From Planctomycetota bacterium (GTDB lineage Bacteria; Planctomycetota; UBA8108; UBA1146), in the NCBI GenBank assembly GCA_028825265.1, contig JAPKAM010000004.1, positions 333 through 64,332 of the forward strand: 64,000 nt of DNA, given 5' to 3'. The notes under the pieces are model-generated. The model ran no database searches. It was not told the DNA's origin and saw only the letters and a program-made list of their open reading frames with translations. Below are positions 18,515-37,596 of this stretch, piece by piece; the first letter of the stretch is position 1, and every line of letters begins with the position of its first letter. The translations under genes were made by a program, and so were the position numbers.

Positions 18515-20659
18515 ATGCGACCATCTAGAAGTCCCTGGAATCCCATTCCAAGCCCAAAGATGGAGACTCAATTGGACGTGCCAGAACGAGCACGAGGTGA
18601 GAGGCAGTCGAACTCTTCGGCGAGCCCTACCCGACTGGTCATCCGTGATATGGCGGGGGAACGCTATGTCACGCTCGATGGCGATACCATCTCGATCGGT
18701 CGCTCTCGCGATAACGACATAGAGGTGGGAGACATCTCATCTTCTCGTCAGCATTGCCAGATGAAGAGGATTCAGGGGCGCTGGCACATCGAGGACTTAC
18801 GTAGTCGAAATGGAACTCTCGTCAACGGGATCCTCATCCGCCGTCAACCCTTGATGGGGGGAGATCTGATCGAGATCGGCAAGACCCAGATCTTTTTTGG
18901 CGAAATTCCTGAACTGCATCGGGAGAATGCTCCAGCGGGAGAGACCCTGATACTCAGCACCGAGTACTTTCTCGAGCCGATCGCAGAAGAGGTCACCACC
19001 GAAGATCCGATTCGATTCCAGAAGGAACGAGAAATCTTCCTCCGATTACTCGAGTTGACCAGGGATCTCGGAGCCATCCTCGTGACAGAAGAATTGTTCG
19101 AAGTTATTCTTCAGAATATCATCGAGATTTCCGGAGCCGAGCGGGGATTCCTGATCATCGAGGATGATCAGGAATTACGGGTGGCTTCTTCTCGAAACAT
19201 CGACCGTGATGTGGTTCGAAGAGCTCATTTGCAGGTGAGCCAGTCTCTCACTCGAAGAGTGATCGATTCAGGTGAGCCGGTTCTGACTGGCGATGCTCGA
19301 AGTGATCCTCGTTTTCATGATTCTGCATCGATCGCAAATCTGCGGCTGGAATCGGTTCTGTGCGTGCCCCTCCGATTGCGCGGCAAGATTCTGGGGGCTG
19401 CATATGTCGATAATCGATTTGAAAAGCACTCCTTCCACCAGGGGACTCTCCGTTTCGTTCAGTTTCTTGCGGACCAAGCAGCGATCTATATCGAAAATGC
19501 CCGATTGTTCGAGGAACTGCAGCGTAAGCAGGAAGCGATCCAAACCTCCAAGGATCAGGTCGAGGCGCTGAACCGGGAACTACAGGCGATGTTGATCGCT
19601 CGCGACGTGGAACCCGAGGATGTCCGGGAATTGCTCAAGCGTGGAGCGCGACCTGATCTGAAGCACTCCTTTGATCGAATCGTGACTCGCTCTCCGGTCA
19701 TGATCCGGGTCTTCGAGTTGCTCGATCGCATCATCGATACCGACATGCCGGTGTTGATTCTTGGAGAAAGTGGAACCGGGAAGGAACTGGTGGCTCAGGC
19801 GATCCATGTTGGATCGGATCGAAGAAGTGACGCCTTTGTTTCCCAGAACTGCGCGGCGATCCCTGAGAACTTGCTGGAGAGCGAATTCTTTGGTCACGTC
19901 AAGGGCGCCTTTACCGGTGCTCATCGTGACAAGAAGGGTCTTTTCGAATTGGCCGACGGAGGGACTCTGTTCCTCGATGAGATCGGAGATATGAGTACAG
20001 ATCTTCAGGCGAAGTTACTTCGGGTACTCGAAGACGGGGAAATTCGTCCAGTTGGGTCTCGAGATACGATTCGCGTGAAAGTGAGAATCATCTCCGCCAC
20101 CAATCAGAAACTGGAAGAGATGGTTCGCAACGGTAAATTCCGTGAAGATCTCTACTACCGATTGAATGTGCTGACGGTTCAGTTGCCTGCACTGCGGGAA
20201 CGCCGCGAGGATATCCCTCTGCTGGTAGACCATTTCATCGATGAGGTTTGTTCCCGTCATGATCGGGAGCGCCCCAAGATGGATCCGAGAACTTTGTATG
20301 CGCTTTACCACAGCCCTTGGCCTGGAAATGTTCGACAACTGGAAAATGAAATAGAGCGACTGGTGGCACTCTCCGAAGGTGTCATCGTGCCAGAAACGAT
20401 TTCTCCATCGGTGTTGTCGCATGGCCCTACGGCCGGTTCGGGAAATCGGGAGCCGATGCGTGGCACACTTCGGGAACTGGTCGCTGAAGCGACCGAGGGG
20501 CTGGAACGGCAGGTCATCAGTGCGACCCTCGAGGAGAACTCATGGAACAAAAGCCAGACCGCCCGACAATTGGGAGTCTCCAGGCCAACACTGGATCAGA
20601 AGATCGAGAAGTATCAACTGAAGCGCAAATCAGAGACGGATGGGGAGAATCTAGCATGA
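18515..20659 (+). CDS. Sigma-54-dependent transcriptional activator with N-terminal FHA domain and GAF domain
   Basis: FHA (ISIGRSRDNDIEVGD...SRQHCQM...NGTLVNG), GAF, AAA+ (GESGTGKELVAQAIH, GAFTGA, ESEFFGH) and Fis-type HTH (QTARQLGVSRPTLDQKIEKY). The real start may be the internal M at 18560 or 18650. Confidence 0.8.
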   Translation: MRPSRSPWNPIPSPKMETQLDVPERARGERQSNSSASPTRLVIRDMAGERYVTLDGDTISIGRSRDNDIEVGDISSSRQHCQMKRIQGRWHIEDLRSRNGTLVNGILIRRQPLMGGDLIEIGKTQIFFGEIPELHRENAPAGETLILSTEYFLEPIAEEVTTEDPIRFQKEREIFLRLLELTRDLGAILVTEELFEVILQNIIEISGAERGFLIIEDDQELRVASSRNIDRDVVRRAHLQVSQSLTRRVIDSGEPVLTGDARSDPRFHDSASIANLRLESVLCVPLRLRGKILGAAYVDNRFEKHSFHQGTLRFVQFLADQAAIYIENARLFEELQRKQEAIQTSKDQVEALNRELQAMLIARDVEPEDVRELLKRGARPDLKHSFDRIVTRSPVMIRVFELLDRIIDTDMPVLILGESGTGKELVAQAIHVGSDRRSDAFVSQNCAAIPENLLESEFFGHVKGAFTGAHRDKKGLFELADGGTLFLDEIGDMSTDLQAKLLRVLEDGEIRPVGSRDTIRVKVRIISATNQKLEEMVRNGKFREDLYYRLNVLTVQLPALRERREDIPLLVDHFIDEVCSRHDRERPKMDPRTLYALYHSPWPGNVRQLENEIERLVALSEGVIVPETISPSVLSHGPTAGSGNREPMRGTLRELVAEATEGLERQVISATLEENSWNKSQTARQLGVSRPTLDQKIEKYQLKRKSETDGENLA

Positions 20660-23217
20660 GTGGCAGGATTCGCGTGAAGGACCTCGGTCGCAAGACTATC
20701 GTCAACATTTCAGATCAACCGATCACTGTCGGCCGGGACCCCGATTCCCGCATCGTGATCGGCGATCGAGCGGCTTCTCGTAAACATGGAGTGTTTAGTT
20801 GGGAAGGGAGTGACTTTGTCTATCAAGATCTCTCCTCATCCAATGGAAGTGTCCTGGCGGGAAAGAAGATCGATAAGGTGTCGCTGTCTCATGGAGACTG
20901 CATCTACATCGGAGATGCGGAGTTCCAATTGGAACTGTTGGACGGGGCCCCTCTCGATGACGAGACCGATCGAACGCCGATCGATGGTGTTGTTTCCTCA
21001 CGAGGGAACGATGCACCTACTGGCCCTGGCCTAGTTTATCAACATGAAGGTACCGATCAGTGGGTCCAGGCGGTCGGAAGGATCGTTGTCGGTCGCTCCG
21101 AGGAAGCCGATGTGACCCTAAATGACGGTCGAGTGTCATCCAAGCACGCCGTCATGCTCGAACAAGATGGATGCTGGTACATGGCCGATCTTGGCTCCGG
21201 AAACGGCATTGTGGTGGGACAAACAAAGGTCAAGAAACTTGAACTCACCGATGGTGTTCAGTTTCGAATTGGTTCCACGGAGTTCAAGGCGAGAGGCTTC
21301 TTGAACCGGGCACAACCCTCCAGGGATGGCGGGACAGCCGCTTCGATCTCGACTCGGTCTGTCGCGAATCGGGCTGTCTCGAATCGATCTTCTGCGAATC
21401 GGCCTGTCGCGAATCCAGCGGCGGAGATGACGGTGGGGCGAAGTACCCGGGTCGATGTCGGTTCGGAGGGTTCCCAGGGTCTCTTTACCATCGCCTTCAT
21501 CTTGGTACTGGGGGTGGTGCTCTACTCCGGTTACGGCTGGCTTCAAGACCTCGCGAGTAATCCTGACCTGGTGGTCCCGGAGGGGGATCGACTCTCCGGT
21601 GCTGGTCATTTTGAACTGGTTCCCCCTGGGCCGCTCGATGATGGTCCGTGGCGCTGGATCAGTGGTGAGGGTTCACTCGTTGTCGAGCGAGGGGAAGCGG
21701 CTCCCCACGGCCAGCAATGGCTCTCTTGTCGCGGCTCCTCCGATCCACGAGGTGTCATGCGACTCGAATATGACACCGTTTTCGAGGTGCAACAGGGACA
21801 AGGGTTACGCCTTAGTGCACGGCTCCAGAATACAGGATTCGATCGAATCGGACTGTCCGTCCGCTGGATTGAATCACGCGATGAGGGCGATCGAATTGTC
21901 GATGAGCAATTCTCTTCCTTGAAATCATCTTCCAACTGGAGTGGTCATGCTGCCGAGTTTGCCCCTCCGGTGGCGGGCAAGGGAGGTTCTGCAAGAGTCT
22001 CCGTGGTTGCATTGGGTCAAGGCAGAGAAATCCAGGTGGATCAAATGGTGATTCGCACAGTCGAAGCGCAGCGAGATCAACTGATTCATATCACCGCAGG
22101 AGATGCCGAACAGAAGATGGATCTTGCCATCGACGCCTCGGGAGTCGGCAAGTTGGTGCGCGGGCGGCAGGAGCTGATTTCAGATTTGCGGATCGCGATC
22201 GGTCCTCCAAGGAGCATGCCCTGGGGCCAACTTTTACCGATTCGCCGTGAGCAAATCGTCAGCGGCGATGATGGTTCCATCCGGCTTGGCTTCGAACTCG
22301 ATGAACAAGGACAAGGAAAAGTAGCGATTCAGCAGTTTGCCCGTTCGATCGGCTGGAAGATTGCTGCCAGTTGGACTCCGCAACGACCCACTCCGATGAT
22401 CCTGGTGGGAAGGGTGCCGATCCGAAGGGGTTCTTCACCGGTGCAAGTTTTTGCCGGCAGTAAATCCGTCGCAGTGGCGGATCGTTGGACCGATCTTGAG
22501 CCCTGTTCCGGGACAGAGATCTCGATTGGAATCGGTAACGATCAGATGGTTGCGACCTTTCAGCAGCCGATGATGTTCTCAGTGATCCCCGGTCAGGACG
22601 GTCGAGGTGCACTGTTGGTGGCCGATGCTGGAATCGTCATCGCTGGAGGTTCTCTCGATGTTTCATTCTCCGCCAGTAGCGAGCGCGAGCAATCCCGGGT
22701 GCTGGAGGCTCTCGCCGAGGTGAACCGAACGCTGGACGCGAGATCTGAGGGAGAGGCGGCTCAACTGATCCGACTGGCCCGAGCCGATTTCCCTTGGAGA
22801 GTGGACTTGGCCCGCAAACTGGACCTGATCGAAGAACGCATCGAGGTCGAAGTCGACGCTGCGCTGGGCCAGATCGCTGCCGTACTCGAAGATTCGAGGA
22901 AGTATCCAGGATCCTCAACCAGCATGTATTTGGAGAGAATTTGTCGCGAGGCGGTTGGTAGATTTGTCGGACTAGATCCCGCCCAGGAGTCGCAGCAGAT
23001 CCTGGATCAGCGCAAGAGTGCCAGTCAAAACGCAAATGACCGGATGGCCGTGGGGAAAGTCGAACTACTGCTGGCTCGTGGGCGATCCGCTCTAGGGAAA
23101 CATCGTTTCGAGATCGCTCGCTTCTACTTCCGCATGCTACTGGATCAGTATCCAGAATCTCCCGGTGCGGCGATCGCGGCTCAGGAATTAAAACTCATCA
23201 CTGCGAGGGGGGACTGA
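20656..23217 (+). CDS. Membrane protein with two N-terminal FHA domains and a large periplasmic domain
   Basis: FHA1 (ITVGRDPDSRIVIGD...SRKHGVF...SSNGSVLAG) and FHA2 (IVVGRSEEADVTLND...SSKHAVM...GSGNGIVVG). One TM helix (LFTIAFILVLGVVLYSGYGWL), then ~570 periplasmic aa. ATGA overlap with the upstream activator; the ORF track starts it earlier, at 20542. Confidence 0.65.
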   Translation: MSGRIRVKDLGRKTIVNISDQPITVGRDPDSRIVIGDRAASRKHGVFSWEGSDFVYQDLSSSNGSVLAGKKIDKVSLSHGDCIYIGDAEFQLELLDGAPLDDETDRTPIDGVVSSRGNDAPTGPGLVYQHEGTDQWVQAVGRIVVGRSEEADVTLNDGRVSSKHAVMLEQDGCWYMADLGSGNGIVVGQTKVKKLELTDGVQFRIGSTEFKARGFLNRAQPSRDGGTAASISTRSVANRAVSNRSSANRPVANPAAEMTVGRSTRVDVGSEGSQGLFTIAFILVLGVVLYSGYGWLQDLASNPDLVVPEGDRLSGAGHFELVPPGPLDDGPWRWISGEGSLVVERGEAAPHGQQWLSCRGSSDPRGVMRLEYDTVFEVQQGQGLRLSARLQNTGFDRIGLSVRWIESRDEGDRIVDEQFSSLKSSSNWSGHAAEFAPPVAGKGGSARVSVVALGQGREIQVDQMVIRTVEAQRDQLIHITAGDAEQKMDLAIDASGVGKLVRGRQELISDLRIAIGPPRSMPWGQLLPIRREQIVSGDDGSIRLGFELDEQGQGKVAIQQFARSIGWKIAASWTPQRPTPMILVGRVPIRRGSSPVQVFAGSKSVAVADRWTDLEPCSGTEISIGIGNDQMVATFQQPMMFSVIPGQDGRGALLVADAGIVIAGGSLDVSFSASSEREQSRVLEALAEVNRTLDARSEGEAAQLIRLARADFPWRVDLARKLDLIEERIEVEVDAALGQIAAVLEDSRKYPGSSTSMYLERICREAVGRFVGLDPAQESQQILDQRKSASQNANDRMAVGKVELLLARGRSALGKHRFEIARFYFRMLLDQYPESPGAAIAAQELKLITARGD

Positions 23218-24836
23218 TGGCTTACAAGGGACAGGTCACTGTTCTCGAGTTGAAGTCCCACCGCTGGCGTGCAGTCCATGTGCGTGGAATCGGGCATACC
23301 GTTGAGGTGGTCTCGGTTAACGAGGTGGAATCCCCCGCAGATGAAGACATCGGGGCATGGGTCAAGGAACTGACGACCAGAAAATTTCCGACCGGAAACA
23401 TTGTACTTCTGCTCGATGGAGAGAGTTCATCACTTCGCTACCATAGCGTGCCTCCGGTACCTTCCTGGCGGCTCGACCTGATCCTTCATTACGAGATCGA
23501 GGAGATCGCAGAAAAGACTGGTGATGCCCTCTCCGGGGGGCACATCGAACTGCTGGTTCCGGAGAGCCTATCCGAGGACACCTTGTTGCTGCTTGGGGTC
23601 GGGAAAGACTCGGTGATCCAGCCCCTCATCGACCAAATCCGGGAGGGCCATGGACAAGTGAAGTTGGCCTTGCCTTCTGCGATCGGAACTTTCCACGGAC
23701 ATCTCGCCAGTCACGGACCTGAGAGCGAAGATCAGACGGTCTTGCTGTGCGATGTGCAGGAGACTGAAACACAGGTGCTCGTGGTTCGGGAAAACCGATT
23801 ACTTTTTGCTCGAAGTGTCGGATTTGGTCTTCAAGGAATGGTCGATCTGGTCACCGAACGAACATCGGTTTCTGAAGCGAAAGCACGTCAGATGATCGCC
23901 GCATTCGTTTCGGGAGATCTGATCGATGGAGAAGAAGCGATGGTCGGCTGTCACCGCGGCTGGACCAGTCAGTTGGGGCAAATGCTCACGTCTTCTCTCT
24001 CCTTCTGTAAAGCTCAGCTGAAGATTGACGATGTCATCGCAGATCGAGTACTACTTTCGGGTATCGGAGCAGAGCTCGTAAGTCGATGCGATCAGCTCCG
24101 TCGATTGATGGATAAAGATCTAGAGGTGGTCTCCTTCGCGGGAACCGCTGGATCGCAGTGGACTCTGAATATAGGGACTGCAGCAGCAGCCCTCGATTCC
24201 GACGATCGAATTGTCGATCTGCTGCCCACTGCCGAGCGCAAGCGCAGAACGTTTCGAGACCACACACGCTTTTTGTGGGCCGGTGTTGCTGCGTTGGTTT
24301 TGGCCGTCGGATTGCAGGCGATGGATGTGTCTGTTTCTGCCGCACGCGCTACCGGTGCATCCCAAACGATTCGTCAGTGGCGCGGCGATATTTCCAACTG
24401 GCGGTCGGCAGAAGAAGATGCTCGAAAAAGTAACGATGTGTTCCGGAAAAGGGAGACCAGGATCATCCAGGAGATCGAGACGGGGAAGTTTTACTCGAAG
24501 ATCCTCGACCGACTTCGGCAGGATCTTCCCTCCGAAATCTCACTGGAGCAGATCAGCCTTCGCAGGGTTGTCGGCGATTCAGAGATCGGTATCGAGATCG
24601 AACTGATCGGCCAGGCGGACAATTCTCGACGTAATGGCCTCGAAGCCATCGAGACGTTGCAGGGTAACCTCGAGGGTATTCCTGGTGTTGAACGGGTTCG
24701 TTCCACACCTGAAGACCAGAAATCAGGCGCCTATCCATTCAGTATCTTGGTTTCTCCGGATGAAAAGTTGCCGGAGAAGAGTAACCGGGGTCCTGGCAAC
24801 CGTCGTAGGAAGTCACCGTTCGGGGGGAGAGGATGA
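23217..24836 (+). CDS. GspL-like / PilM-PilN fusion-like inner-membrane assembly protein
   Basis: Cytoplasmic actin-like segment (LLCDVQETETQVLVV...FARSVGFG...RVLLSGIGAEL), single TM helix (FLWAGVAALVLAVGLQAM) and a periplasmic coiled-coil domain. TGATG overlap with the upstream gene. Confidence 0.4.
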   Translation: MAYKGQVTVLELKSHRWRAVHVRGIGHTVEVVSVNEVESPADEDIGAWVKELTTRKFPTGNIVLLLDGESSSLRYHSVPPVPSWRLDLILHYEIEEIAEKTGDALSGGHIELLVPESLSEDTLLLLGVGKDSVIQPLIDQIREGHGQVKLALPSAIGTFHGHLASHGPESEDQTVLLCDVQETETQVLVVRENRLLFARSVGFGLQGMVDLVTERTSVSEAKARQMIAAFVSGDLIDGEEAMVGCHRGWTSQLGQMLTSSLSFCKAQLKIDDVIADRVLLSGIGAELVSRCDQLRRLMDKDLEVVSFAGTAGSQWTLNIGTAAAALDSDDRIVDLLPTAERKRRTFRDHTRFLWAGVAALVLAVGLQAMDVSVSAARATGASQTIRQWRGDISNWRSAEEDARKSNDVFRKRETRIIQEIETGKFYSKILDRLRQDLPSEISLEQISLRRVVGDSEIGIEIELIGQADNSRRNGLEAIETLQGNLEGIPGVERVRSTPEDQKSGAYPFSILVSPDEKLPEKSNRGPGNRRRKSPFGGRG

Positions 24837-25639
24837 TCCAGGAAATCTGGCAAAAAAACCGCAAGGTTTTGATTCAGGTGCTTTCAGCACTGGCGATTTT
24901 TCTGGTCGCTACTAATGTCACTAGCAGTTATCGAGCCGACCATGAAAAAAACCTGATTCGACATGAAGAGGACGCCCAACTGGTCGCACAGGATCTCGAG
25001 GGGCTCGAAGGTGTGGTCGATGTGGAGAGAAAATCTCGGACCGCCCTTGAGGATCGGAATCTGGATCTCCTTAAGAAACTGGGGATCTCTTTTTCAGCAA
25101 TTCATCAACCATCGGTGGATGAGGCATCTGTCAGTACTGATTTCAAGAGAGCCAAGGACCTGGTCTGGAACAACTTCAGGGACCAGGCCAATCGAGCTGG
25201 AATGGTGACTCCCGCCGAGATTCCGAATTTTGATGAGCGTTCTGATCTGTCATTGCTGGAATGGGCCGATCGGTATCGACTGCTGGAAGTTCTCGATCGA
25301 TTCACCAGGGTCTGCCTTCAAACCGGGGTTGCGCGCCTTGATGATGTGATCCCTGCGAAACGGCTGCAGGAGGCATTAGAAGATCCTAACAAGGTGCTCG
25401 CTCGTTATCCGCTCCACGTCAAGATGCTCTGCAAGCCCGAGCAATTGGTGGAGATGCTGCTTCGTTTTCAGCGCGACGGCGGATTCCTGTCACTAGAGCC
25501 GACAAGGGTGACCCAGGAAAAGTCCGGCGGTGAGAAAATCGAAGTGGATTTACTAGTTGTTGGAATTGACATGGAAGACCCTCGAGTCGACAGCGGCTCG
25601 ACTCGTCGGGGATCCGACCGTTCGAGGAGGGGATTCTGA
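24833..25639 (+). CDS. Bitopic membrane protein, GspM/PilO-like by architecture
   Basis: N-terminal TM helix (VLIQVLSALAIFLVATNV) plus a periplasmic domain. ATGA-coupled within the operon. Confidence 0.35.
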   Translation: MIQEIWQKNRKVLIQVLSALAIFLVATNVTSSYRADHEKNLIRHEEDAQLVAQDLEGLEGVVDVERKSRTALEDRNLDLLKKLGISFSAIHQPSVDEASVSTDFKRAKDLVWNNFRDQANRAGMVTPAEIPNFDERSDLSLLEWADRYRLLEVLDRFTRVCLQTGVARLDDVIPAKRLQEALEDPNKVLARYPLHVKMLCKPEQLVEMLLRFQRDGGFLSLEPTRVTQEKSGGEKIEVDLLVVGIDMEDPRVDSGSTRRGSDRSRRGF

Positions 25640-26025
25640 TGCGCTGGAACATCGAAAAGGGATTCTGTGTTATCTGCCTCGGGTTTTTACTCCTGAGTGT
25701 TCTGGGGCTAGCTAAAACCTACATCCTGGAAGATCCACTGGCGGGGGTCGATCTCAGGGTCCCTGAATCCAGTGATGGGGGAACTGTCGGAGGGCTGGTG
25801 AGGCTGGAGTGGTATGAACCGGCTCCCATAGAAATGGCCAGAAATCCATTCTCCAGTGTCAGCGAATGGAAAACTGCTCCAACAGATTTGTTGGGCGTGC
25901 CGCCCCTCAGTCCCGTACTACGCAGGGTACCGCTGCCGGCACTGGTGTCTGGCGACCCCAGGACCCGCCTTCGTGCCGAACTGGCGACTCCCGTAGCGGT
26001 CGAAGATGAGAAGGAGTCTCAATGA
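25639..26025 (+). CDS. Small bitopic membrane protein (GspC/PilP-like position)
   Basis: TM helix (FCVICLGFLLLSVLGLA) and a Pro-rich periplasmic tail. Translationally coupled at both ends. Confidence 0.3.
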   Translation: MRWNIEKGFCVICLGFLLLSVLGLAKTYILEDPLAGVDLRVPESSDGGTVGGLVRLEWYEPAPIEMARNPFSSVSEWKTAPTDLLGVPPLSPVLRRVPLPALVSGDPRTRLRAELATPVAVEDEKESQ

Positions 26026-30376: not shown

Positions 30377-33300
30377 GCCAGAGAGAAATCTTGAACGAGG
30401 AATGGCCTTGTTGATGGTCATCCTGGTGCTCTCCGCGCTGGCAGCGATCGGTACTCCGTTTGTGATTTCGATGAAACTTCAAGAAAGAGGTGCCGCTCGG
30501 GCAATCGCACAGCAGCACGCACAACTCGCTGCGCAAAGTGCCAGAGGACATGCTCTTAGCCGATTGTTCGATACTCATCATAGTCGAGAACGAGATCGCT
30601 GGCGCCCCGGAGTGGAGGCTCCTGACTTGGTCGATGGACTGGACGAATTGAAAGTCGACTTTCCTGGTGTGATCACAACTGTACCTGTGGTCGGTACACC
30701 TCCGGAGGATTTTCAAATTCGAGGTAATTCTCAGGTGATCCTCGATGCTCGCGTGACTGACGAGCAGGGCAAGATCAACATCAACTCTGCGATGCCTAAT
30801 CTCATGGGCAACTTGTTGGCCGGGAGTCATCTGTCCGAAGCGATCAGCTATGAAACGGATCTGGGAGAGTTGCCACTCGACGACACCTCTTCTTTTCCCG
30901 CGGATGATGATCCGGAGACGATTGATGGTGTCGTCGTGATCCTCAATCCGATCTTCTTCACTGTCGAGGCGATTTCATACACTGGAAAAACTGAAACAGC
31001 GTTGACCGGGATCTTCAGGGGACAATACCTGTCGGGGACATGGGAGCACCAGAAAGGTTGGCCAGTCTTCGACCTTCGTGGGTTGAAGGTCTTCTTGCAT
31101 CGGCTCGCCAATCTCTCTGACGGTGAAATCGCGACCTTCCGTACTCCGATTGGAATCCGTCAGATTGCCGATTGGTCGGTGGTTCCCTATTTCCTCAAGA
31201 CCCTGGCAGTGGTGGGGCTCAATTTCAAGAACATGGCGGAATGGGGTCTGACCACAGAGATGCTGGTGCGTGCGGGGATCGATCCATCCTTGCTCCAGGG
31301 GGATACAGAACAAGTGGATGAAGCGGAATATCGTAAAGCACGAAAGATGTTTCTCGATAATAACATCCCCAAGGATGTGGTCGATCTGGTCGAGTCGATT
31401 CGTGGAAAAGCTGCGGTGATCGAAGCGGCTGAGGTGGTCGCGGGCTTTGGTCTGACCAAGGCCAGGGGGAATGCATTCAAGGGTGTCTATCTGACCTTCA
31501 TCGCACCGGAGCTGAAGAAGATCAAGAAGAGGGGCAAGAGTTATTTCCCCAGCGCCATCCTCGCTTACCAGGAAATTTTTGATCTCCCCGGAATGGAAAC
31601 CTTTTCAGCTTTTGAGTTTGAGCAAATCCGCGACCTGATCACGACCACCTCGACCCAGCCGAGGGCATGGTCGCAGGAACAGATGGTCGAGGGAGAGATC
31701 ACCGATAGTGCGCTACTCGGAGTCCCGCAGATGCGTCTGCCACGGTATGACTTCTTCAATCCTGGAACTGTGGTGAGAATCCGCAGCATCGATGATCCCT
31801 CGAAGGTTGAATATGGACTCGCTGCGGGGGCTTTCCCGACTCCTCGGGGAGGATTCCGGGGATTGGGAGCTGGCTCCATCTTTCAGGGCGGTGTGATTCT
31901 CAAGGAACCCTTGAAATATCAGTGGGGCGAGCGCGAGGCGATGGTTAGTGCCGCACTTCGGCATCCGGTCAACATCAATACCGCCCCTCGTAGGGTCCTC
32001 GAAGCGGTCTTGACCGGGCTCTCCACCGATCGGTTCGAGGCACGATTCAACGGAGTGACCGTCGAAGAAGCGCGTGGATTGACCGACCTCCTGATGGAAG
32101 CGATGCCGATTTCTGGTTTCGCCGCTTTGCGGGAGGTGGTGGAAGCCGCTCAGATGAGTGGCGTCCTCGATGGCGGTGATTCCGAAGCGATTCTCATTAA
32201 CGCACTGAACCCAAATCAGCCACGACTCTCCATCTCCACCACGGGATTTTGTTACGCCACTTCTGAGATCTACACCGTTGAATCGACCGGAGTGGCCAGG
32301 AGCCCGGTGGGTACTCCTCAAGCGACGGTTCGCCTTCGTGAGGTGATCGAGGTTGCACCTCCGGATCCGCTTTCGCTAAGGCTGGAAACGCAGGAGGACT
32401 GGTCTTCCATCTTTCTCACACGTAATTCGAGCGGTGGGATGTTCTCTCGATTCAACACGACTTTCGTCCCCGGTCGGGCGTCGAACCTGGTGATCAGTGG
32501 TCCGATCCCTCTCAACCGTCGCAAGTTCACCGGGCCTTCTCTCGATGAAGGAACTCTTCGTGGAGCGACCATCTCGTATGATCGAGATTCAGGGAACTAC
32601 GGTTTCGGCTCGGTCGGCTTGCTGGATGTCGAGCACTTTAGCGAAACCATCGAGGGGTATGAACTGGAAGACGGTTCCTGGAAGCGATCGATTCTCCTCC
32701 AGCAAGAAACCGAACCGACTCGGGGCCGAGGACGCAGGGGGGCGGCGCCTGATCCCCAAGTTTTGGATCAAAATTCGACTGAAGACGCCCTTTCGACCAT
32801 CCCTGCGATGATTGATTTCTGGTACCGCCCGCGCTGGGGCTCGCGAAGTGGAAACCGAATTATCTTCGATACCGTGGGCCCGACCCTGGATCGATATCGT
32901 GATCGTGTGCGATTGTTCTTCTCCGGGGATACACAGGAACTGGTGCTGCAGGTCTTTGATGAGACCGGATCTGCAGTGGCGTGGGATACCAATGTTCTAC
33001 CTGCGGCAGAGGTTCGGCACTCGGTCACGACCATCAACTTTGCAGATGACACCTGGTATCACATCTCTGCGGGATGGAGATCGACGAGGCCTGGAGATCT
33101 GGTGCTGATGATCGATCGTCGGCCGGTCGGTCGTCAGTCCTGGTTGTCACGCCTCAATGGTGCGCTTTCATTCTCGGGCAATCGTGTTTCCATCGTCGAT
33201 GGTGACATGGCGACCCGGTTCCCCCCGATGGGCACCTTGCTGGTGGGTTCTGAAGCGATCGATTACTCGGGTCGGGAAGGGGCTGCCTTCATCGTCAGGT

Positions 33301-36092
33301 CACCAGGGCTCAACGGCTCTCCTCCGATCGGGCGCGGAGTTCGTGGGACGGTTCGGTCGAGCCATGCTGCGGGCACTCCTGTAAGGCTTCTGGGGTATTC
33401 ATTGCCCATCGCCAATTCTGATCCACGACGCGGACTGGCCGATTCCTCCAGTGACATCATCATCGGTCCTGGTGGGGCATCTCTGGAGATTGAGATCACT
33501 CCGACGATGAGGGTTGCGGCCTTCAACACCGGTACAGGTGCAGTGGAATTGACGCCTGCGACATTTTCACGTGCCTCGACCCAGATCCCCTTCTCTGCCG
33601 GAAGTCCCGTGACCAGTACCCTGGAATTGGAGCCGTTTGCGGCCACTTCGTCTTCCTTGCTGGTTCAGACCAACGGAAGCCATCCTCTGGAACTGGGTTT
33701 TCCGCCGCGAGGATATCTTCATATCCAACAGTGGACCCAGCAGGGGATCGAAAGGGCGCAATTGGTGGCGTCTGAATTCGCCAAGTACTCCTCCATCACT
33801 CCGGGACCGATCCCTGGCCTCTATCGCTTCACCGCCATGGGTAGAGCGCTGCTAAACTCGACGGCGACCCAGGGTGTCATCACGGCCACCTCCACAACCA
33901 CCCTGCAGGTCAGGGGTGTTTCTATCGAGTCGAATGCGACCGATTTGAATCTGAGTTATGCACCTTCCGGTGTGATTCAGATCGATTACATGCCTGGCTC
34001 GCAGAGTCTCGGGCTGCTCCAGGATGCCGAATGGATTCGATACACGCAGATCGCCGAGGGCAAGTTCTTCATCTGTGATCCGGATCAGGTCGAGGCCTTT
34101 CGTGGCTTCACCGGGGACCAGTACATCAACACCAGTGATCCATTCCGTCGTAATCGGCCACTGTGGGATATGAATGGCATCGTGCGCCATGCTGCCGGAC
34201 AGGAGATCACTCAGGTGGTCCGCGCGGTCGGGGCCTCTGCTGGATTTGGTGACGAAGTGATCCTCGGGGATGGCTATGGCGATCCGACTACCCGGCTGCG
34301 AGAAGAAACGCCGCTGAGAGTTCGCAAGGTCCGCGAAACCGACAGTGGCACCTATGTCAGCTTTTACTGGCCTCCTGAGGGAATCTATCGGCCGGGACAG
34401 GATCCACGAATCCGTCGTTTCCCCAGTGGTGGTTTACCTTCTTCATCCAACGGGGAGATTCGCTTCGGGTCATCGATGATCAGCGGCGATGGGATCGATG
34501 CACCGGGGACCCTGGACGAGGTTCGTTTTAGTCGCCTCGACTCGAGTGACGTCGACACCTATGCATTTCCCGCCGCTTCCAATGGTGGGTTCCGGACGAT
34601 GCCGATCCAGGCTTCGCCGGGATTGCCGTCGGGGGTTCGAACCGAGGTGCTGCGTAGCGGATACACGGAACAGGATTCTGAACAGCCGGGCGGAGTGCTC
34701 GACAAGATTCACTTGTTGGCTCGTTCAAAACTCACCGCTTCCGCTGTGACGCCACCGGAAGGTGCCACTGATTTCACTGCAGGATCGGTTCGATCCTTTT
34801 CAGTCGGCGATCCTCGAGGATTTGGGCTGGGAAAACGAGAAGGATTGTTTCAGGTCGATGATGAGGTGATGCATTACACCTTTGACCCCGGCTCGGTCGA
34901 GGCCTCGGTGGTGATCCAGTTGGAGCAGGATCTTCCGCGCGATCCTTACCTGGATGAAGATGCGCTCGGTGAAGGGGAGGTGGTTCCCTATGACCCCAAC
35001 CGAGACCTGAGAGTGGAAGTGGTCAACATTGTCCGGGTCAACAACACCGCCAACCTACCTCCCAACGGCGGATTCCTTGAGATGATCTCCGGACCCACCA
35101 ACGAAGTGCTCTACTACCAGCAAGCTTCGAACGGGGTGCTACGCAATGTGCTGCGCGGCCAGCTCGGATCATCGGTGGGTGGGTATGTTTATCAGTGGTC
35201 CTACACCGACGCCGCCGGTGCTGTTCAAGTTGTGACCAATACCCACCAATTGCGGTTGATCCCCAGTCGTACCATCGATGTGATGACCCGAGGAATGCTC
35301 ACCACGGAACGTGCTAGCAATGAGTTGGGACACGAACCTCTGGTTCCGCTCCCCAGTATCCCAGTGGCACGGCTCGCCGGGCAGGTCGCTGAATCGGGTT
35401 TGACGCTGGAGGTGATGGGACTTCCCGGAAACGAAGGTGAGAATCGCCAGCTGCTGGGATTCCCTTCCGGCGAGGGATATCTGCTGGTGGATGACGGAAT
35501 CGTCTCGACACCCGACGAGATCATCGCTCACACCGGAGCGCAGGGCGGTAGCTTTGGACTGTTCCGTGACGATCGCACTGGCAAGGGAATTTTCCGCGGT
35601 CGCTTCGGCACCGATTTTAAGGTCCATGCCGCGGGTACCCCTGTCATCGAACTTCTGGCTCGACATCACGATCGTTATCAGCCGCTGGTGGAATCGAAGG
35701 ATCTCCAGTATCTCGAGCGGGCCTGGACGATGCCAGGAACGATGTGGGACCGCATCAGTTGGGCTGTGGAACAGTCTCGAAACCGTTCCACCGCCGGAAC
35801 CGTACGAATACTCGCCCGTTTTGATGGCATCCCTGGTTGGGATTCCACTCCGACCAATGCACCGGGTGGGCTCTATCTGTTCGACGATCCAGATGACGCG
35901 AATCGACTGGGGAGATTTGGTGATGCGATTGAAATTCGGATTCACTATCGTCACCGAAAAGGAGCCTTTGGCCTGACGCGTCAGTCGGGGATCTGGAATG
36001 ACGAATGGAAACATCTTCCCATCTTGAAAAGCGTAGCGATCGAGCACCGCAAGGAGTGGCGTATCTTGCATCACGAGGAATACCCGTATTGA
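30369..36092 (+). CDS. Giant GspK-like minor pseudopilin (1907 aa)
   Basis: GTG start. GspK-type N-terminus RG|MALLMVILVLSALAAIG lacking Glu+5, as in GspK. GspK family motif HPVNINTAPRRVLEAVLTGLS, followed by >1500 aa of extra sequence. Confidence 0.5.
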   Translation: MVKPERNLERGMALLMVILVLSALAAIGTPFVISMKLQERGAARAIAQQHAQLAAQSARGHALSRLFDTHHSRERDRWRPGVEAPDLVDGLDELKVDFPGVITTVPVVGTPPEDFQIRGNSQVILDARVTDEQGKININSAMPNLMGNLLAGSHLSEAISYETDLGELPLDDTSSFPADDDPETIDGVVVILNPIFFTVEAISYTGKTETALTGIFRGQYLSGTWEHQKGWPVFDLRGLKVFLHRLANLSDGEIATFRTPIGIRQIADWSVVPYFLKTLAVVGLNFKNMAEWGLTTEMLVRAGIDPSLLQGDTEQVDEAEYRKARKMFLDNNIPKDVVDLVESIRGKAAVIEAAEVVAGFGLTKARGNAFKGVYLTFIAPELKKIKKRGKSYFPSAILAYQEIFDLPGMETFSAFEFEQIRDLITTTSTQPRAWSQEQMVEGEITDSALLGVPQMRLPRYDFFNPGTVVRIRSIDDPSKVEYGLAAGAFPTPRGGFRGLGAGSIFQGGVILKEPLKYQWGEREAMVSAALRHPVNINTAPRRVLEAVLTGLSTDRFEARFNGVTVEEARGLTDLLMEAMPISGFAALREVVEAAQMSGVLDGGDSEAILINALNPNQPRLSISTTGFCYATSEIYTVESTGVARSPVGTPQATVRLREVIEVAPPDPLSLRLETQEDWSSIFLTRNSSGGMFSRFNTTFVPGRASNLVISGPIPLNRRKFTGPSLDEGTLRGATISYDRDSGNYGFGSVGLLDVEHFSETIEGYELEDGSWKRSILLQQETEPTRGRGRRGAAPDPQVLDQNSTEDALSTIPAMIDFWYRPRWGSRSGNRIIFDTVGPTLDRYRDRVRLFFSGDTQELVLQVFDETGSAVAWDTNVLPAAEVRHSVTTINFADDTWYHISAGWRSTRPGDLVLMIDRRPVGRQSWLSRLNGALSFSGNRVSIVDGDMATRFPPMGTLLVGSEAIDYSGREGAAFIVRSPGLNGSPPIGRGVRGTVRSSHAAGTPVRLLGYSLPIANSDPRRGLADSSSDIIIGPGGASLEIEITPTMRVAAFNTGTGAVELTPATFSRASTQIPFSAGSPVTSTLELEPFAATSSSLLVQTNGSHPLELGFPPRGYLHIQQWTQQGIERAQLVASEFAKYSSITPGPIPGLYRFTAMGRALLNSTATQGVITATSTTTLQVRGVSIESNATDLNLSYAPSGVIQIDYMPGSQSLGLLQDAEWIRYTQIAEGKFFICDPDQVEAFRGFTGDQYINTSDPFRRNRPLWDMNGIVRHAAGQEITQVVRAVGASAGFGDEVILGDGYGDPTTRLREETPLRVRKVRETDSGTYVSFYWPPEGIYRPGQDPRIRRFPSGGLPSSSNGEIRFGSSMISGDGIDAPGTLDEVRFSRLDSSDVDTYAFPAASNGGFRTMPIQASPGLPSGVRTEVLRSGYTEQDSEQPGGVLDKIHLLARSKLTASAVTPPEGATDFTAGSVRSFSVGDPRGFGLGKREGLFQVDDEVMHYTFDPGSVEASVVIQLEQDLPRDPYLDEDALGEGEVVPYDPNRDLRVEVVNIVRVNNTANLPPNGGFLEMISGPTNEVLYYQQASNGVLRNVLRGQLGSSVGGYVYQWSYTDAAGAVQVVTNTHQLRLIPSRTIDVMTRGMLTTERASNELGHEPLVPLPSIPVARLAGQVAESGLTLEVMGLPGNEGENRQLLGFPSGEGYLLVDDGIVSTPDEIIAHTGAQGGSFGLFRDDRTGKGIFRGRFGTDFKVHAAGTPVIELLARHHDRYQPLVESKDLQYLERAWTMPGTMWDRISWAVEQSRNRSTAGTVRILARFDGIPGWDSTPTNAPGGLYLFDDPDDANRLGRFGDAIEIRIHYRHRKGAFGLTRQSGIWNDEWKHLPILKSVAIEHRKEWRILHHEEYPY

Positions 36093-37174
36093 TGAACAAA
36101 GAACAAGGAATGACTCTGATCGAGATTCTCGTATCGCTGGGTATCTTCGTGATGCTCGGGAGTGGCCTGGTTGTGTTTCTGAAAGATGGAATTTCCACCT
36201 GGCAAGTCGGCGAATCGAGACGTGAAGCGATCGAACGATCGGAGGCGATTCTGCAGCCGCTTTGTGCCGATCTGAGATCTCTCTTCTCGCAACCCGATCC
36301 TGGACCTGGTGGTGGACTCGTCGATGTACTGCTGCTGTGTGATCGTGACGCTCTGGGTCGATCCCGATTGCGCATGGTCAGTGTGCTTGACGAGGAGGTT
36401 CGCAATCCGATCACCCGGATTGCTGGATCGCTGACGGGCGGTCTTGCCGACATCGATTACCGAAATGATGCGATGGAAGCTCGGCTGGGAATTCTTCGTG
36501 CCCCTGGCGGCCTGTGCGAGGTGAGCTATTCGATGGGACCCGCGGCAGGTTCCGAAGTGTTGTGGAAGGGGTTCAAGAGCCCCATCGGGGGCGAAGGCAC
36601 CCTTTTCAATCAGGCCAACTTGGCGCCCGATGTCGATGGCACTCCGATGCGGAGTCGCCCCATCGCCGATGGTGTGCTCTACATCGAATGGTCCTTCTGG
36701 GGTGGAGATCGTCGTCGCTGGGTCGATGGCAAAATCCAGCCCCCGATCACCCGCTGGGATTCGACTCGCGGTATCTTGCCGATGGATCGAAAAACTGGAA
36801 TTCGCTGGGATCCTGACAGTCGAGATGATCCCTCCGATGATGTGTTCCCCGACACCGTCGAGGTGCTGCTGGTTCTGAGACCTGCCCGGTCGATGGCTCT
36901 AGCAAGACTGATTTCGGATATCGACGATAGAACCGCTGAGATTCGGGTTGATTCCACCGCGCAGTATCCAGTGGGTCCTGATCATTACATCCGCATCGAC
37001 TCCGAATGGATTCGCGTGGGGCGCATCACACGAGGTGCTTTTCTCGATTGCGAAAGAGGAATGCGAGGTTCGGTAGCGCAGCAACACGCACGTCTGCGGC
37101 CGGTGGTCCACGGCTCTGAATTCCGGAAAACGGTTCGGATTCCAGGATCCCGGGATCCGGGGGGGCAGCGATGA
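36092..37174 (+). CDS. Pseudopilin-like protein (GspJ-like position)
   Basis: QG|MTLIEILVSLGIFVMLGS with Glu+5. TGATG overlap with the giant gene; the ORF track starts it earlier, at 36005. Confidence 0.55.
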   Translation: MNKEQGMTLIEILVSLGIFVMLGSGLVVFLKDGISTWQVGESRREAIERSEAILQPLCADLRSLFSQPDPGPGGGLVDVLLLCDRDALGRSRLRMVSVLDEEVRNPITRIAGSLTGGLADIDYRNDAMEARLGILRAPGGLCEVSYSMGPAAGSEVLWKGFKSPIGGEGTLFNQANLAPDVDGTPMRSRPIADGVLYIEWSFWGGDRRRWVDGKIQPPITRWDSTRGILPMDRKTGIRWDPDSRDDPSDDVFPDTVEVLLVLRPARSMALARLISDIDDRTAEIRVDSTAQYPVGPDHYIRIDSEWIRVGRITRGAFLDCERGMRGSVAQQHARLRPVVHGSEFRKTVRIPGSRDPGGQR

Positions 37175-37596
37175 AAGTGCAGCACAAAGAATCAGGATTC
37201 ACCTTGCTCGAGGTGGTCGTGGCTCTCGGAATCCTGACGGTCGGAGTCAGTGCTGCCATCTCCCTGTTCGCCGCAGGTACCGCTTCGCATCGGCGTGCGG
37301 TCGATCGGATCCGGGCCATCGAGGTCTCGGAAGTGGTCCTCTCCGCCCTCGAAGGGACGATTCGCGACGGAGCAACGGTGACCGATTTGATCCAGAATCC
37401 ACCGTGGCAACCATTGATCTCTCGGTGGCCTGGAATCTCAGTGGAGGTGCGTTATGGCACCGTTCCCAAGGTAGACTTCACCGATGAGCTGCTGGTCGAG
37501 ATTCATGTGCAGTGGATCTCTCGCGGGCTCGATAGTGAGGAAGTGTTTCGACAGATCGTTCCGAGGATGAGAAGTATCCGATTGGATGCGCCCTGA
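37171..37596 (+). CDS. Small pseudopilin (GspI-like)
   Basis: SG|FTLLEVVVALGILTVGVSAAISLF with Glu+5. 141 aa. ATGA overlap. Confidence 0.6.
   Translation: MKVQHKESGFTLLEVVVALGILTVGVSAAISLFAAGTASHRRAVDRIRAIEVSEVVLSALEGTIRDGATVTDLIQNPPWQPLISRWPGISVEVRYGTVPKVDFTDELLVEIHVQWISRGLDSEEVFRQIVPRMRSIRLDAP

What the first reader, a model, noticed from the sequence alone, without database searches (positions are those of the whole stretch)
18515..37596. A 19-kb, 12-gene translationally coupled operon linking an FHA-sigma54 regulator to a complete, enlarged pseudopilin set
Every junction from 20656 to 37171 is an ATGA/TGATG overlap or a 0-8-nt gap, so the block reads as one transcription/translation unit. 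The order is: FHA-GAF-sigma54 activator, dual-FHA membrane protein, GspL-like, GspM-like, small bitopic protein, TPR secreted protein, then pseudopilins G, H, K, J, I. This couples a phospho-threonine-reading (FHA) sigma54 regulatory module directly to a T2SS/T4P-like fibre module. No ATPase (GspE/PilB), platform (GspF/PilC) or secretin is present in the window. The system is therefore either split across the genome or an unusual, incompletely described fibre apparatus. Enlarged pseudopilins, a giant GspK and FHA control in one operon are not the textbook T2SS arrangement.
Basis: partly seen in the sequence, partly recalled or inferred. Interest (0 to 1): 0.85.

Follow-up and report, generated by a model that had tools for sequence, protein, structure and literature searches.

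The report
Planctomycete pilus cassette with giant tip pilin
This is a real, conserved operon of uncultured marine Planctomycetota that encodes part of a type IV pilus / type II secretion-like fibre machine, including a 1,907-residue lectin-bearing tip subunit and phosphothreonine-reading regulators, but not the motor, so it is an unusual variant of a known machine rather than a new kind.

Summary
Eleven (not twelve) + strand genes run from 18515/18560 to 37596, and all ten junctions are overlaps of 1-8 nt or abutting. No GspE/F/D-type gene lies in the window.

Identities are mostly confirmed:
- FHA-GAF-sigma54 activator with a GAFTGA loop.
- Membrane protein with two FHA domains.
- Two bitopic proteins; PilO/GspM-likeness is untested.
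- Secreted TPR protein.
- GspG-like major pseudopilin and H-, K-, J- and I-like minor pseudopilins.

K is a modular pilin: a GspK-like module, a LamG lectin fold, and about 950 further all-beta residues.

The nine-gene core (PilMN to I) recurs in distant Planctomycetota MAGs, never beside an ATPase, platform protein or secretin. Two lineages lack the FHA protein and the activator, so those are accessories.

The operon has no conserved sigma54 promoter. Instead, a 26-nt element with a perfect palindrome sits just upstream of the activator gene and is invariant across lineages.

Best reading: a type IV filament sub-assembly with a lectin-like tip, driven by a motor encoded elsewhere and gated by Ser/Thr phosphorylation. 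This is a new variant of a known kind, of moderate interest.

The parts
18477..18502 (+). Conserved non-coding element CACCCCCCTGTAAAATCCTCTTTACA, with the perfect inverted repeat TGTAAA-N6-TTTACA at 18485-18502. It is a candidate promoter/operator at the head of the operon. TTTACA is -35-like, and 16 nt downstream lies GACCAT, whose A, A and T are invariant.
   Evidence: 24 of 26 nt are invariant in 11 diverse orthologous loci, while the flanks are not conserved. There is one copy per locus in all 22 loci that hold this region and none elsewhere in the window, where 0.01 is expected by chance. It is not a sigma54 promoter: the GG is not kept in the window, L001 or L014, and there is no GC at -12.
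18515..20659 (+). Sigma54 enhancer-binding protein with FHA, GAF, AAA+ (GAFTGA loop) and Fis-type HTH domains. The probable true start is 18560.
   Evidence: Pfam gives Sigma54_activat 3e-72, GAF_2 3.5e-17, FHA 1.8e-16 and HTH_8 4.4e-13. GAFTGA and the FHA residues GR...SRQH...NG are seen in the translation. It is 72-92% identical in orthologous loci and overlaps the next gene by 4 nt in most of them.
20656..23217 (+). FHA2: a bitopic inner-membrane protein. It has two cytoplasmic FHA domains, one membrane span (aa 275-293), a roughly 550-aa periplasmic part of unknown fold, and a TPR-like C-terminus.
   Evidence: Pfam finds FHA at 6.3e-29 in two stretches. The pThr-binding residues G146 R147 S161 H164 N183 G184 are invariant. 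The periplasmic part has only a weak CpoB/TPR match. An exhaustive search found about 20-25 full-length relatives among 1.84 billion representatives. One clade has a single FHA domain.
23217..24836 (+). PilM-PilN fusion: an actin-like PilM domain, a PilN-type 'VDLLPxxxRKRR' motif (aa 333-345), a membrane span (aa 353-373), a long helix and a ferredoxin-like periplasmic domain. The domain order is the same as in GspL.
   Evidence: The AlphaFold model has pLDDT 81.6. Foldseek against PDB puts PilM 5eox/5eou at E = 1e-18 and the PilM-PilN complex 2ych at TM 0.76. V333, L336 and P337 are invariant. There are weak NCBIfam hits to pilM and the Amuc_1101 family. Homologs carry PF11104.
24833..25639 (+). 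A 268-aa bitopic protein with a membrane span at aa 12-30. It sits where PilO or GspM would be. Its identity is inferred only.
   Evidence: It is conserved in every cassette. It has no Pfam, NCBIfam or PDB sequence match and no significant profile match to the PilN-like part of the fusion.
25639..26025 (+). A 128-aa bitopic protein with a membrane span at aa 7-25 and a proline-rich periplasmic tail. Function unknown.
   Evidence: It is present in most cassettes at 122-140 aa. It has no family match.
26022..28352 (+). A secreted TPR protein (776 aa) with an N-terminal signal-like hydrophobic segment. It occupies the position that the secretin gene has in pilMNOPQ.
   Evidence: Pfam finds TPR_16 at 2.2e-13 and other TPR families. 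There is a weak sub-threshold PilW/PilF-type TPR hit. It is conserved in all cassettes.
28353..28994 (+). GspG-like major (pseudo)pilin of 213 aa. It has a class III signal peptide (G|FTLVE) and the GspG-type motifs DPWGxPYxY and SxGPDG, plus insertions.
   Evidence: Pfam N_methyl scores 1.6e-08. NCBIfam gspG scores 8.3e-11, below its cut-off. A profile search against PDB hits GspG 5wda at 1.9e-11, and the C-terminal motif region hits GspG structures weakly. The short ortholog in L110 hits Pfam T2SSG.
28988..30376 (+). GspH/FimU-like modular minor pilin of 462 aa that carries a LamG/ConA-like domain.
   Evidence: Hits are N_methyl 9.2e-07, Laminin_G_3 2.7e-05 (just below its cut-off) and NCBIfam gspH 1.2e-06, below its cut-off. 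Orthologs carry Laminin_G_3.
30369..36092 (+). A giant GspK/PilX-like modular minor pilin of 1,907 aa. It has a pilin helix without Glu5, the GspK motifs DEQGKININ (aa 131-139) and RHPVNINTAPRRVLEAVL (aa 531-548), a LamG-fold domain, and a large all-beta C-terminal region.
36092..37174 (+). GspJ/PilW-like minor pilin of 360 aa (G|MTLIE).
   Evidence: N_methyl scores 1.4e-05. Orthologs give sub-threshold hits to gspJ and to Verru_Chthon cassette protein C.
37171..37596 (+). GspI/PilV-like minor pilin of 141 aa (G|FTLLE).
   Evidence: N_methyl scores 1.9e-07. NCBIfam pilV scores 1.3e-05 and gspI 1.8e-05, both below their cut-offs.

Best explanation
The block is a vertically inherited Planctomycetota cassette that encodes the inner-membrane alignment part and all the fibre subunits of a type IV filament machine. 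That machine family includes type IVa pili and type II secretion systems.

Shown:
- A PilM-PilN fusion, two small bitopic proteins, a secreted TPR protein, and a GspG-like major subunit.
- Four minor subunits (H, K, J, I) of the kind that prime and cap such fibres.
- K is a modular pilin whose GspK-like module carries a LamG lectin-fold domain and about 950 further beta-rich residues. H also carries a LamG domain.
- In this lineage the cassette is headed by, and overlaps with, a membrane protein with two FHA domains and an FHA-GAF sigma54 activator.
- All three FHA domains keep the phosphothreonine-binding residues.

Inferred:
- The five pilins are cleaved by a prepilin peptidase and polymerised by an ATPase and platform protein encoded elsewhere.
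- H, I, J and K form the tip, so the fibre displays the roughly 200-kDa lectin-like K module, for binding a polysaccharide or a surface.
- A Ser/Thr kinase signal is read by the FHA domains. It gates assembly through the membrane FHA protein and transcription of sigma54-dependent genes located elsewhere through the activator.
- The operon itself is probably transcribed from a sigma70-type promoter within the invariant palindromic element at 18477-18502. The activator or another regulator may bind that element.
For: -
- Order is conserved in 20 species-level genomes with shared housekeeping flanks.
- Order is also conserved in distant lineages where K is only 30-43% identical.
- K (62%) and G (66%) are better conserved than PilMN (50%) or FHA2 (37%) over the same divergence. 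This points to strong constraint on the fibre subunits.
- FHA residues are invariant.
- The conserved upstream element is documented.
- The concept of modular pilins with PF13385 lectin grafts presented at fibre tips is in PMC8179133.
Against: - No extension ATPase, platform protein, prepilin peptidase or secretin was found in the window or next to any homologous cassette. I could not search the rest of the genome, so a working machine is assumed, not shown.
- The 268-aa and 128-aa proteins have no detectable similarity to PilO/GspM or PilP/GspC.
- All pseudopilin family hits are below curated cut-offs, except the N-terminal methylation motif.
- No sigma54 promoter was found.
- No kinase or phosphatase is in the window.
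- Two lineages carry the core without FHA2 or the activator, so regulation by FHA is not intrinsic to the machine.
- Ligand binding by the LamG domains is inferred from fold alone.
Confidence: 0.6

Rival explanations
1. It is the pseudopilus and platform half of a true type II secretion system. G forms a short periplasmic piston capped by H-I-J-K, and the system exports folded proteins through a secretin encoded elsewhere. The giant K would act as a substrate-recruiting cap.
For: - The G, H, I, J and K complement matches.
- K lacks Glu5 and carries GspK motifs.
- G has GspG-type C-terminal motifs, and its profile hits GspG 5wda.
- The M-N fusion has the domain order of GspL.
Against: - The fusion protein matches PilM and FtsA, not GspL structures, among the top 50 fold hits. 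It also keeps the PilN 'LLP' motif.
- No GspC, D, E, F or O lies in cis in any lineage.
- A roughly 200-kDa beta-rich lectin-like cap and a LamG-bearing H look like adhesin modules rather than piston parts.
- The gene order G-H-K-J-I and the TPR protein are not those of a T2SS.
Confidence: 0.2
2. The activator is a neighbour rather than a regulator of the fibre. It is co-transcribed but controls unrelated sigma54 promoters, and FHA2 alone links phosphorylation to the machine. A variant of this reading is that the activator only autoregulates the operon by binding the palindrome.
For: - The operon has no conserved -24/-12 site.
- The core cassette exists without the activator.
- The invariant palindrome TGTAAA-N6-TTTACA overlaps a sigma70-like promoter. 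That is the type of site a dimeric HTH protein binds.
Against: - The activator gene overlaps FHA2 by 4 nt in most loci of this lineage.
- It stays linked while the surrounding proteins diverge to 35-50% identity.
- The activator and FHA2 share the same kind of input domain.
Confidence: 0.3
3. The cassette does not build a polymerised fibre at all. The pilin-like proteins stay membrane-anchored and, with the TPR and FHA proteins, form a static envelope-spanning complex.
For: No motor, peptidase or secretin is linked to the cassette in any lineage.
Against: - Four of the five pilin-like proteins keep the full class III signal motif with Gly-1 and Glu5. This is kept across the divergent orthologs of G that were aligned, and all four show it in the window.
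- That motif is needed only for peptidase cleavage and helical assembly (established knowledge of type IV pilins).
- PilM-PilN proteins are known only as parts of assembly machines.
Confidence: 0.05

Closest known systems
Type IVa pilus machine (PilMNOPQ alignment complex plus the FimU-PilVWX-PilY1 priming/tip complex; Pseudomonas aeruginosa, Myxococcus xanthus)
   Same: - The PilM actin-like fold and the PilN N-terminal 'LLP' motif are present.
- The order M, N, then a bitopic protein matches.
- There are four minor pilins plus a very large tip module.
- The genes are split over several loci, with the motor encoded elsewhere.
   Different: - PilM and PilN are fused.
- PilO and PilP counterparts are not recognisable.
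- A TPR protein sits where pilQ would be.
- The large tip module is fused into the PilX/GspK-like pilin instead of being a separate PilY1. No PilY1 domain was found.
- The major subunit is GspG-like.
- FHA proteins head the operon.
Type II secretion system (GspC-O)
   Same: - It has five pseudopilins, with K lacking Glu5.
- K carries the GspK N-terminal and helix-hairpin-helix motifs.
- G carries GspG-type motifs.
- The platform protein has the fused domain order of GspL.
   Different: - The gene order is G-H-K-J-I.
- H, J and K are 2-6 times the usual size.
- No GspC, D, E, F or O is adjacent.
- The fold match is to PilM rather than GspL.
- All family scores are below curated cut-offs.
Akkermansia muciniphila MUL2 locus (Amuc_1099-1102; Amuc_1101 = PilM-like MUL2B), needed for mucin glycan uptake (PMC13174399, citing Davey et al. 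2023)
   Same: - It belongs to the same PVC superphylum.
- Its long PilM-like protein extends into a PilN-like region, and the window protein hits the Amuc_1101 family model there.
- It is a pilus-like system tied to glycan foraging, in bacteria that take glycans into the periplasm.
   Different: - The hit is 22 bits against a cut-off of 650.
- MUL2 has an archaeal-type pilin-like protein and Amuc_1100.
- MUL2 has no G/H/K/J/I set, no TPR protein and no FHA proteins.
'Verru_Chthon cassette' proteins A-D of Verrucomicrobia (TIGR02596, TIGR02598 and TIGR02599; the accession and large size of protein A are recalled from memory; function unknown)
   Same: - These are PVC cassettes of prepilin-type proteins of similar sizes.
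- I hits protein B, J orthologs hit protein C (a 361-position model), and G and H hit protein D. All these hits are sub-threshold.
   Different: - Every score is far below its cut-off.
- None of 18 K-family members hit any family other than GspK at E <= 0.01, so none hit a protein A model.
- No literature on these cassettes was found.
Modular type IV pilins (Streptococcus sanguinis PilB/PilC; Raynaud et al. 2021, PMC8179133)
   Same: A pilin module is fused to a functional module. The PF13385 ConA/LamG lectin graft is among the commonest, and such pilins are proposed to sit at the fibre tip and bind ligands.
   Different: K is far larger. It is built on a GspK-like rather than a simple pilin module, and most of its extension has no recognisable family.
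FHA-rich type IV filament and secretion systems: the Myxococcus Kil Tad-like apparatus (PMC8460266) and the T6SS TagH/Fha-PpkA-PppA threonine phosphorylation pathway
   Same: FHA-domain proteins are encoded inside the machine's gene cluster. They are thought to convert a Ser/Thr kinase signal into assembly.
   Different: - Kil is Tad-type, with FHA fused to the ATPase.
- Here the FHA domains sit on a bitopic membrane protein and on a sigma54 activator.
- No kinase is linked here.

Membership tests
Type II secretion system | Secretin GspD, ATPase GspE, platform GspF, GspC and prepilin peptidase GspO | tested here: not met
   None is in the window or in any related locus with called genes. Presence elsewhere in the genome could not be tested.
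Type II secretion system | Pseudopilins GspG, H, I, J and K reaching family thresholds | tested here: inconclusive
   All five carry the class III signal motif or, for K, the GspK-type variant. NCBIfam scores are gspG 42.1/88.9, gspH 28.7/80, gspI 25.1/44.4 and GspK 40.5/130 bits, all below their cut-offs. GspK is hit by 13 of 18 family members.
Type II secretion system | GspL and GspM platform proteins | tested here: not met
   The fused protein matches PilM and FtsA structures, and no GspL structure is in the top 50. The 268-aa protein has no detectable similarity to anything.
Type IVa pilus machine | PilM actin-like ATPase-fold protein that binds the PilN N-terminus | tested here: met
   Foldseek gives E = 1e-18 to PilM 5eox/5eou and TM 0.76 to the PilM-PilN complex 2ych. 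The PilN-type motif V333/L336/P337 is invariant. PF11104 is found in homologs.
Type IVa pilus machine | PilO, PilP and the PilQ secretin | tested here: inconclusive
   Bitopic proteins of 268 and 128 aa sit at the PilO and PilP positions but have no similarity to them. There is no secretin; a TPR protein sits at that position.
Type IVa pilus machine | PilB/PilT ATPases, PilC platform and PilD peptidase | tested here: not met
   These are absent from the window and from all related loci, by the same calls as for the T2SS. Whole genomes could not be searched with the scans left.
Bacterial sigma54 enhancer-binding proteins | AAA+ sigma54-interaction domain with a GAFTGA loop, plus a DNA-binding HTH | tested here: met
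   PF00158 scores 3e-72 against a cut-off of 20.2 bits, and HTH_8 scores 4.4e-13. GAFTGA is present in the translation.
Bacterial sigma54 enhancer-binding proteins | A cognate -24/-12 promoter near the regulated genes | tested here: not met
   The only perfect consensus (27938-27953) is not conserved at synonymous sites in more than 20 orthologs. No positionally conserved site was found. rpoN is not in the window.
FHA phosphothreonine-binding domains | FHA fold with the Gly-Arg, Ser-x-x-His and Asn-Gly binding residues | tested here: met
   Pfam FHA scores 1.8e-16 for the activator and 6.3e-29 in two stretches for FHA2. The residues are invariant in the second FHA domain and visible in the other two.
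Amuc_1101 family PilM-like pilus complex protein (NF045709) | Score at or above the curated cut-off of 650 bits | tested here: not met
   The score is 22 bits (E = 6e-05), and only over aa 319-440.
Verru_Chthon cassette proteins B, C and D | Scores at or above the curated cut-offs | tested here: not met
   Protein D scores 23.5 and 22.4 bits against 70. Protein B scores 15.4 against 51.4. Protein C scores 19-30 against 256.5 in J orthologs.
Modular type IV pilins | Class III signal peptide and pilin module plus an added non-pilin domain | tested here: met

The most novel reading that the evidence does not exclude
The nine-gene core is a Planctomycetota-specific type IV filament whose job is to catch polysaccharide with the LamG-bearing tip (K and H) and reel it to the cell for periplasmic uptake. 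This would be a planctomycetal counterpart of the pilus-dependent glycan uptake reported for Akkermansia MUL genes. In the marine lineage of the window, Ser/Thr phosphorylation read by three FHA domains would switch the system on. It would also be a type IV filament whose adhesin is built into a 1,900-residue GspK-like pilin.
Probability: 0.15. Interest if true: 0.8.

Novelty: new variant of a known kind. Interest (0 to 1): 0.45.

Why it matters
Planctomycetota are abundant polysaccharide degraders in the sea, and the function of their pilus-like fibres is unknown. This cassette is conserved across many uncultured lineages, is annotated almost entirely as hypothetical, and combines three things worth testing:
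- A PilM-PilN fusion.
- A tip pilin ten times the usual size that carries a lectin fold.
- Phosphothreonine-reading proteins at the head of the operon.

It gives concrete targets for asking how type IV filaments are adapted in PVC bacteria and how Ser/Thr signalling controls them. Those targets are the LamG domains, the invariant palindrome and the FHA domains. It does not overturn any current view of these machines.

Tried and rejected
1. A sigma54 promoter inside the operon. A perfect TGGCAC-N5-TTGCA lies at 27938, about 400 nt before the G gene. It falls on the codons for G-T-R-I-A. The GG/GC core decays at third-codon positions in most of 23 orthologs, so it was rejected. Relaxed scans found no positionally conserved site.
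2. The -24-like TGGCAC next to the conserved palindrome. The GG is lost in the window, L001 and L014, and there is no GC at -12, so it was rejected as a sigma54 promoter.
3. Testing whether the 268-aa protein is PilO/GspM-like. A profile search against PDB sequences gave nothing. hhalign against the PilN-like part of the fusion gave E = 0.1. Pfam and NCBIfam gave nothing. This remains unresolved.
4. Profile searches of the periplasmic part of FHA2 gave only a weak CpoB/TPR hit.
5. A profile search of the whole K family against PDB sequences gave no hit.
6. A second homolog search with the PilMN alignment returned the same 21 proteins.
7. The metagenome scan with the FHA2 alignment used a generic FHA pattern and returned mostly unrelated FHA proteins.
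8. I tested whether the 128-aa protein is fused to the TPR protein in locus L005. The layout fits, but BLAST gave E = 2.1.
9. Exact look-up of the window's own protein found no contig on record.
10. I could not see the region upstream of FHA2 in the distant lineages (L026, L027, L112), because loci extend only 10 kb from the K gene. It is therefore unknown whether the activator is linked there.


Full report
**Source and layout**

The window matches a Planctomycetota metagenome-assembled genome. The 539-aa protein is 100% identical to 'OSB09_00900 [Planctomycetota bacterium]' on a 64,740-bp contig. G+C is even at 0.54-0.59 across the window.

From 18515 to 37596 there are eleven + strand genes. 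Their junction distances are -4, -1, -4, -1, -4, 0, -7, -8, -1 and -4 nt. The 360-aa J-like gene starts at 36092 (TGATG), where its methylation motif begins.

Terminator-like and sigma70-like matches inside the block do not exceed shuffled expectation. Overlapping junctions are also common elsewhere in the window, so the stronger argument for one unit is conservation of the gene order.

**Gene identities**

- **18515-20659 (activator).** This is a sigma54 enhancer-binding protein with FHA, GAF, AAA+ and HTH_8 domains (PF00158 at 3e-72). It has a GAFTGA loop.
- **20656-23217 (FHA2).** It has two FHA domains (6.3e-29, two stretches), one membrane span at aa 275-293, and a periplasmic part of about 550 aa. 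That part matches nothing except a weak TPR/CpoB-like C-terminus. The phosphothreonine-binding residues (Gly-Arg, Ser-x-x-His, Asn-Gly) are invariant in its second FHA domain. They are also present in its first FHA domain and in the activator's FHA domain.
- **23217-24836 (PilMN).** It had no sequence match in PDB. An AlphaFold model built on 20 homologs (pLDDT 81.6) matches P. aeruginosa PilM at Foldseek E = 1e-18. It matches the Thermus PilM-PilN complex 2ych at TM 0.76, followed by FtsA.
  - After the PilM domain come an invariant 'VDLLP' motif (V333, L336, P337), a membrane span, a long helix and a beta-beta-alpha-beta-beta domain.
- This is a PilM-PilN fusion.
- **24833-25639 and 25639-26025.** These 268-aa and 128-aa proteins are bitopic and present in nearly all cassettes. 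They match no family, no PDB sequence and not the PilN-like domain. 'GspM-like' therefore remains an inference from position and topology.
- **26022-28352.** This is a TPR protein with a signal-like N-terminus.
- **G, H, J and I.** These carry G|F/V/M-T-L-x-E class III signal motifs. K carries the Glu5-less variant typical of GspK.
  - G has GspG-type motifs, and its profile hits GspG 5wda at 1.9e-11.
  - H carries a LamG domain.
  - All pseudopilin family scores are below curated cut-offs.

**The giant K protein**

NCBIfam T2SS_GspK matches aa 9-141 at 2.4e-10, and 13 of 18 family members match it. Pfam T2SSK matches the 'NINTA' helix-hairpin-helix region weakly in 11 of 18 members. Laminin_G_3 matches 13 of 18.

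K fits the 'modular pilin' concept, in which a functional module (often PF13385) is grafted onto a pilin and shown at the fibre tip (PMC8179133). It is far larger than the examples discussed there.

**Conservation**

The PilMN family has 21 clusters, and every source name given is a Planctomycetota MAG. The genome scan found 20 species-level genomes. In these the whole block and its housekeeping flanks are syntenic.

Between the window and the most divergent of these genomes, protein identities are: activator 72%, FHA2 37%, PilMN 50%, p268 52%, p128 58%, TPR 49%, G 66%, H 58% and K 62%.

The K family is wider. It has 39 clusters, with full-length members of 1,790-2,050 aa at 30-90% identity.

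- **Distant lineages with FHA2.** Where K is 30-39% identical (L026, L027, L112), the order FHA2-PilMN-p270-p130-TPR-G-H-K-J-I is the same and the flanks partly differ. L005 shows the same core.
- **Lineages without FHA2 or the activator.** L110 and L113 have PilMN-p267-p136-TPR-G-H-K-J-I with shorter K proteins (1,388 and 1,419 aa). An unrelated gene lies directly upstream.
- **A reduced set.** L109 has only a putative H-like gene (455 aa, no family hit), K, J and I.

The core is therefore nine genes, and FHA2 and the activator are add-ons of one sub-lineage. One clade has lost the first FHA domain. An exhaustive search found only about 20-25 full-length FHA2 relatives among 1.84 billion representatives. 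In no locus is an ATPase, platform protein, peptidase or secretin adjacent.

**Regulation**

The window contains one perfect sigma54 consensus, at 27938-27953 inside the TPR gene (0.05 expected). It lies on the codons for G-T-R-I-A, and its GG/GC core is lost at synonymous positions in most orthologs. I reject it. No other positionally conserved -24/-12 site exists.

There is instead a 26-nt element directly upstream of the activator gene, CACCCCCCTGTAAAATCCTCTTTACA (18477-18502). It contains the perfect inverted repeat TGTAAA-N6-TTTACA.

- It is invariant at 24 of 26 positions in 11 diverse loci, while its flanks are not conserved.
- It occurs exactly once in each of the 22 loci that hold this region and nowhere else in the window.
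- TTTACA is -35-like. Sixteen nt downstream lies GACCAT, with A, A and T invariant.
- In some lineages the upstream part reads TGGCAC. The GG is not universal and there is no GC at -12, so it is not a sigma54 promoter.

This element is the best candidate for the operon's promoter and operator. It also places the activator's start at 18560, because one ortholog has an in-frame stop after the upstream ATG. The targets of the activator remain unknown. Its link to the fibre genes is adjacency and overlap, conserved within this lineage only.

**Most likely mechanism**

The cassette supplies the alignment sub-complex and all the subunits of a type IV filament. The motor, platform protein, peptidase and any outer-membrane channel are supplied from other loci. 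Type IVa pilus genes are likewise typically dispersed across several loci (established knowledge).

H, I, J and K would prime and cap a G polymer and so display the lectin-like modules. The FHA protein and the activator would make assembly and expression respond to Ser/Thr kinase signalling. The T6SS Fha pathway and the FHA-rich Kil apparatus are analogies for this (PMC8460266).

A role in glycan capture is suggested only by three things:
- The LamG folds.
- The PVC precedent of pilus-dependent glycan uptake in Akkermansia (PMC13174399).
- Glycoside hydrolase genes near several cassettes, which may be coincidence in these genomes.

**Verdict**

The finding is real and mostly well read. It is a lineage-specific variant of a known machine family, not a new kind of system. 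No paper describing it was found.

Noticed in passing
window 18477-18502: A 26-nt non-coding element with the perfect palindrome TGTAAA-N6-TTTACA is nearly invariant across all lineages that carry the activator gene. There is one copy per locus. It is probably the promoter/operator of the operon.
   Followed up: yes
window 27938-27953 (+): A perfect sigma54 -24/-12 consensus (TGGCACGCGGATTGCA) lies inside the TPR gene, 400 nt before the major pseudopilin gene. It is not conserved at synonymous sites in relatives, so it is most likely a by-product of the coding sequence.
   Followed up: yes
window 38798-38998 (+): A cobalamin riboswitch (Rfam RF00174, 70.8 bits) lies just upstream of two genes of unknown function: 39003-40463 and the NHL-repeat protein at 40445-41776. 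It falls inside the 5' extension of the 508-aa ORF 37609-39135 (-), so that ORF is over-long. Its holA-like counterparts in other loci are 357-389 aa.
   Followed up: no
window 17000-18472 (+): A peptidase S13 (PBP4-type D-Ala-D-Ala carboxypeptidase) gene sits directly upstream in the same orientation. It is syntenic in all close relatives. The conserved element between it and the activator suggests that it is a separate transcription unit.
   Followed up: partly
L003, L016, L018, L025 (FHA2 orthologs, about 705-722 aa): One clade of the same lineage has lost the first of the two FHA domains of the membrane protein. 'Dual FHA' is therefore not a fixed feature.
   Followed up: partly
L110 2696-14875 and L113 2616-15845: More distant Planctomycetota carry the nine-gene core with a shorter K (about 1,400 aa) and no FHA protein or sigma54 activator upstream.
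   Followed up: partly
L109 8456-15607: A reduced set lies next to a polysaccharide export and synthesis cluster (Poly_export, Wzy_C, glycosyltransferases). The set is a 455-aa protein with no family hit, a 1,351-aa K-like protein, a J-like protein and an I-like protein.
   Followed up: no
L005 3398-3850: In this distant locus the small bitopic gene is missing. The TPR protein instead has an N-terminal membrane span and a proline-rich stretch laid out like the 128-aa protein, which suggests a fusion. The similarity is not significant (BLAST E = 2.1).
   Followed up: partly
L023 (QNYK01000100.1): A contig labelled 'Bacillota bacterium MAG 7' carries the full syntenic block at 67% PilMN identity. 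This is probably a mis-binned or mislabelled Planctomycetota contig.
   Followed up: no
window 47142-48329 (-); L026 22985-25853; L027 24695-26009; L110 19566-20558; L113 16644-19634: Glycoside hydrolase genes (GH113, GH20, GH116, GH130, GH123) lie within about 10 kb of the cassette in several lineages. This may be coincidence in glycan-degrading genomes.
   Followed up: no
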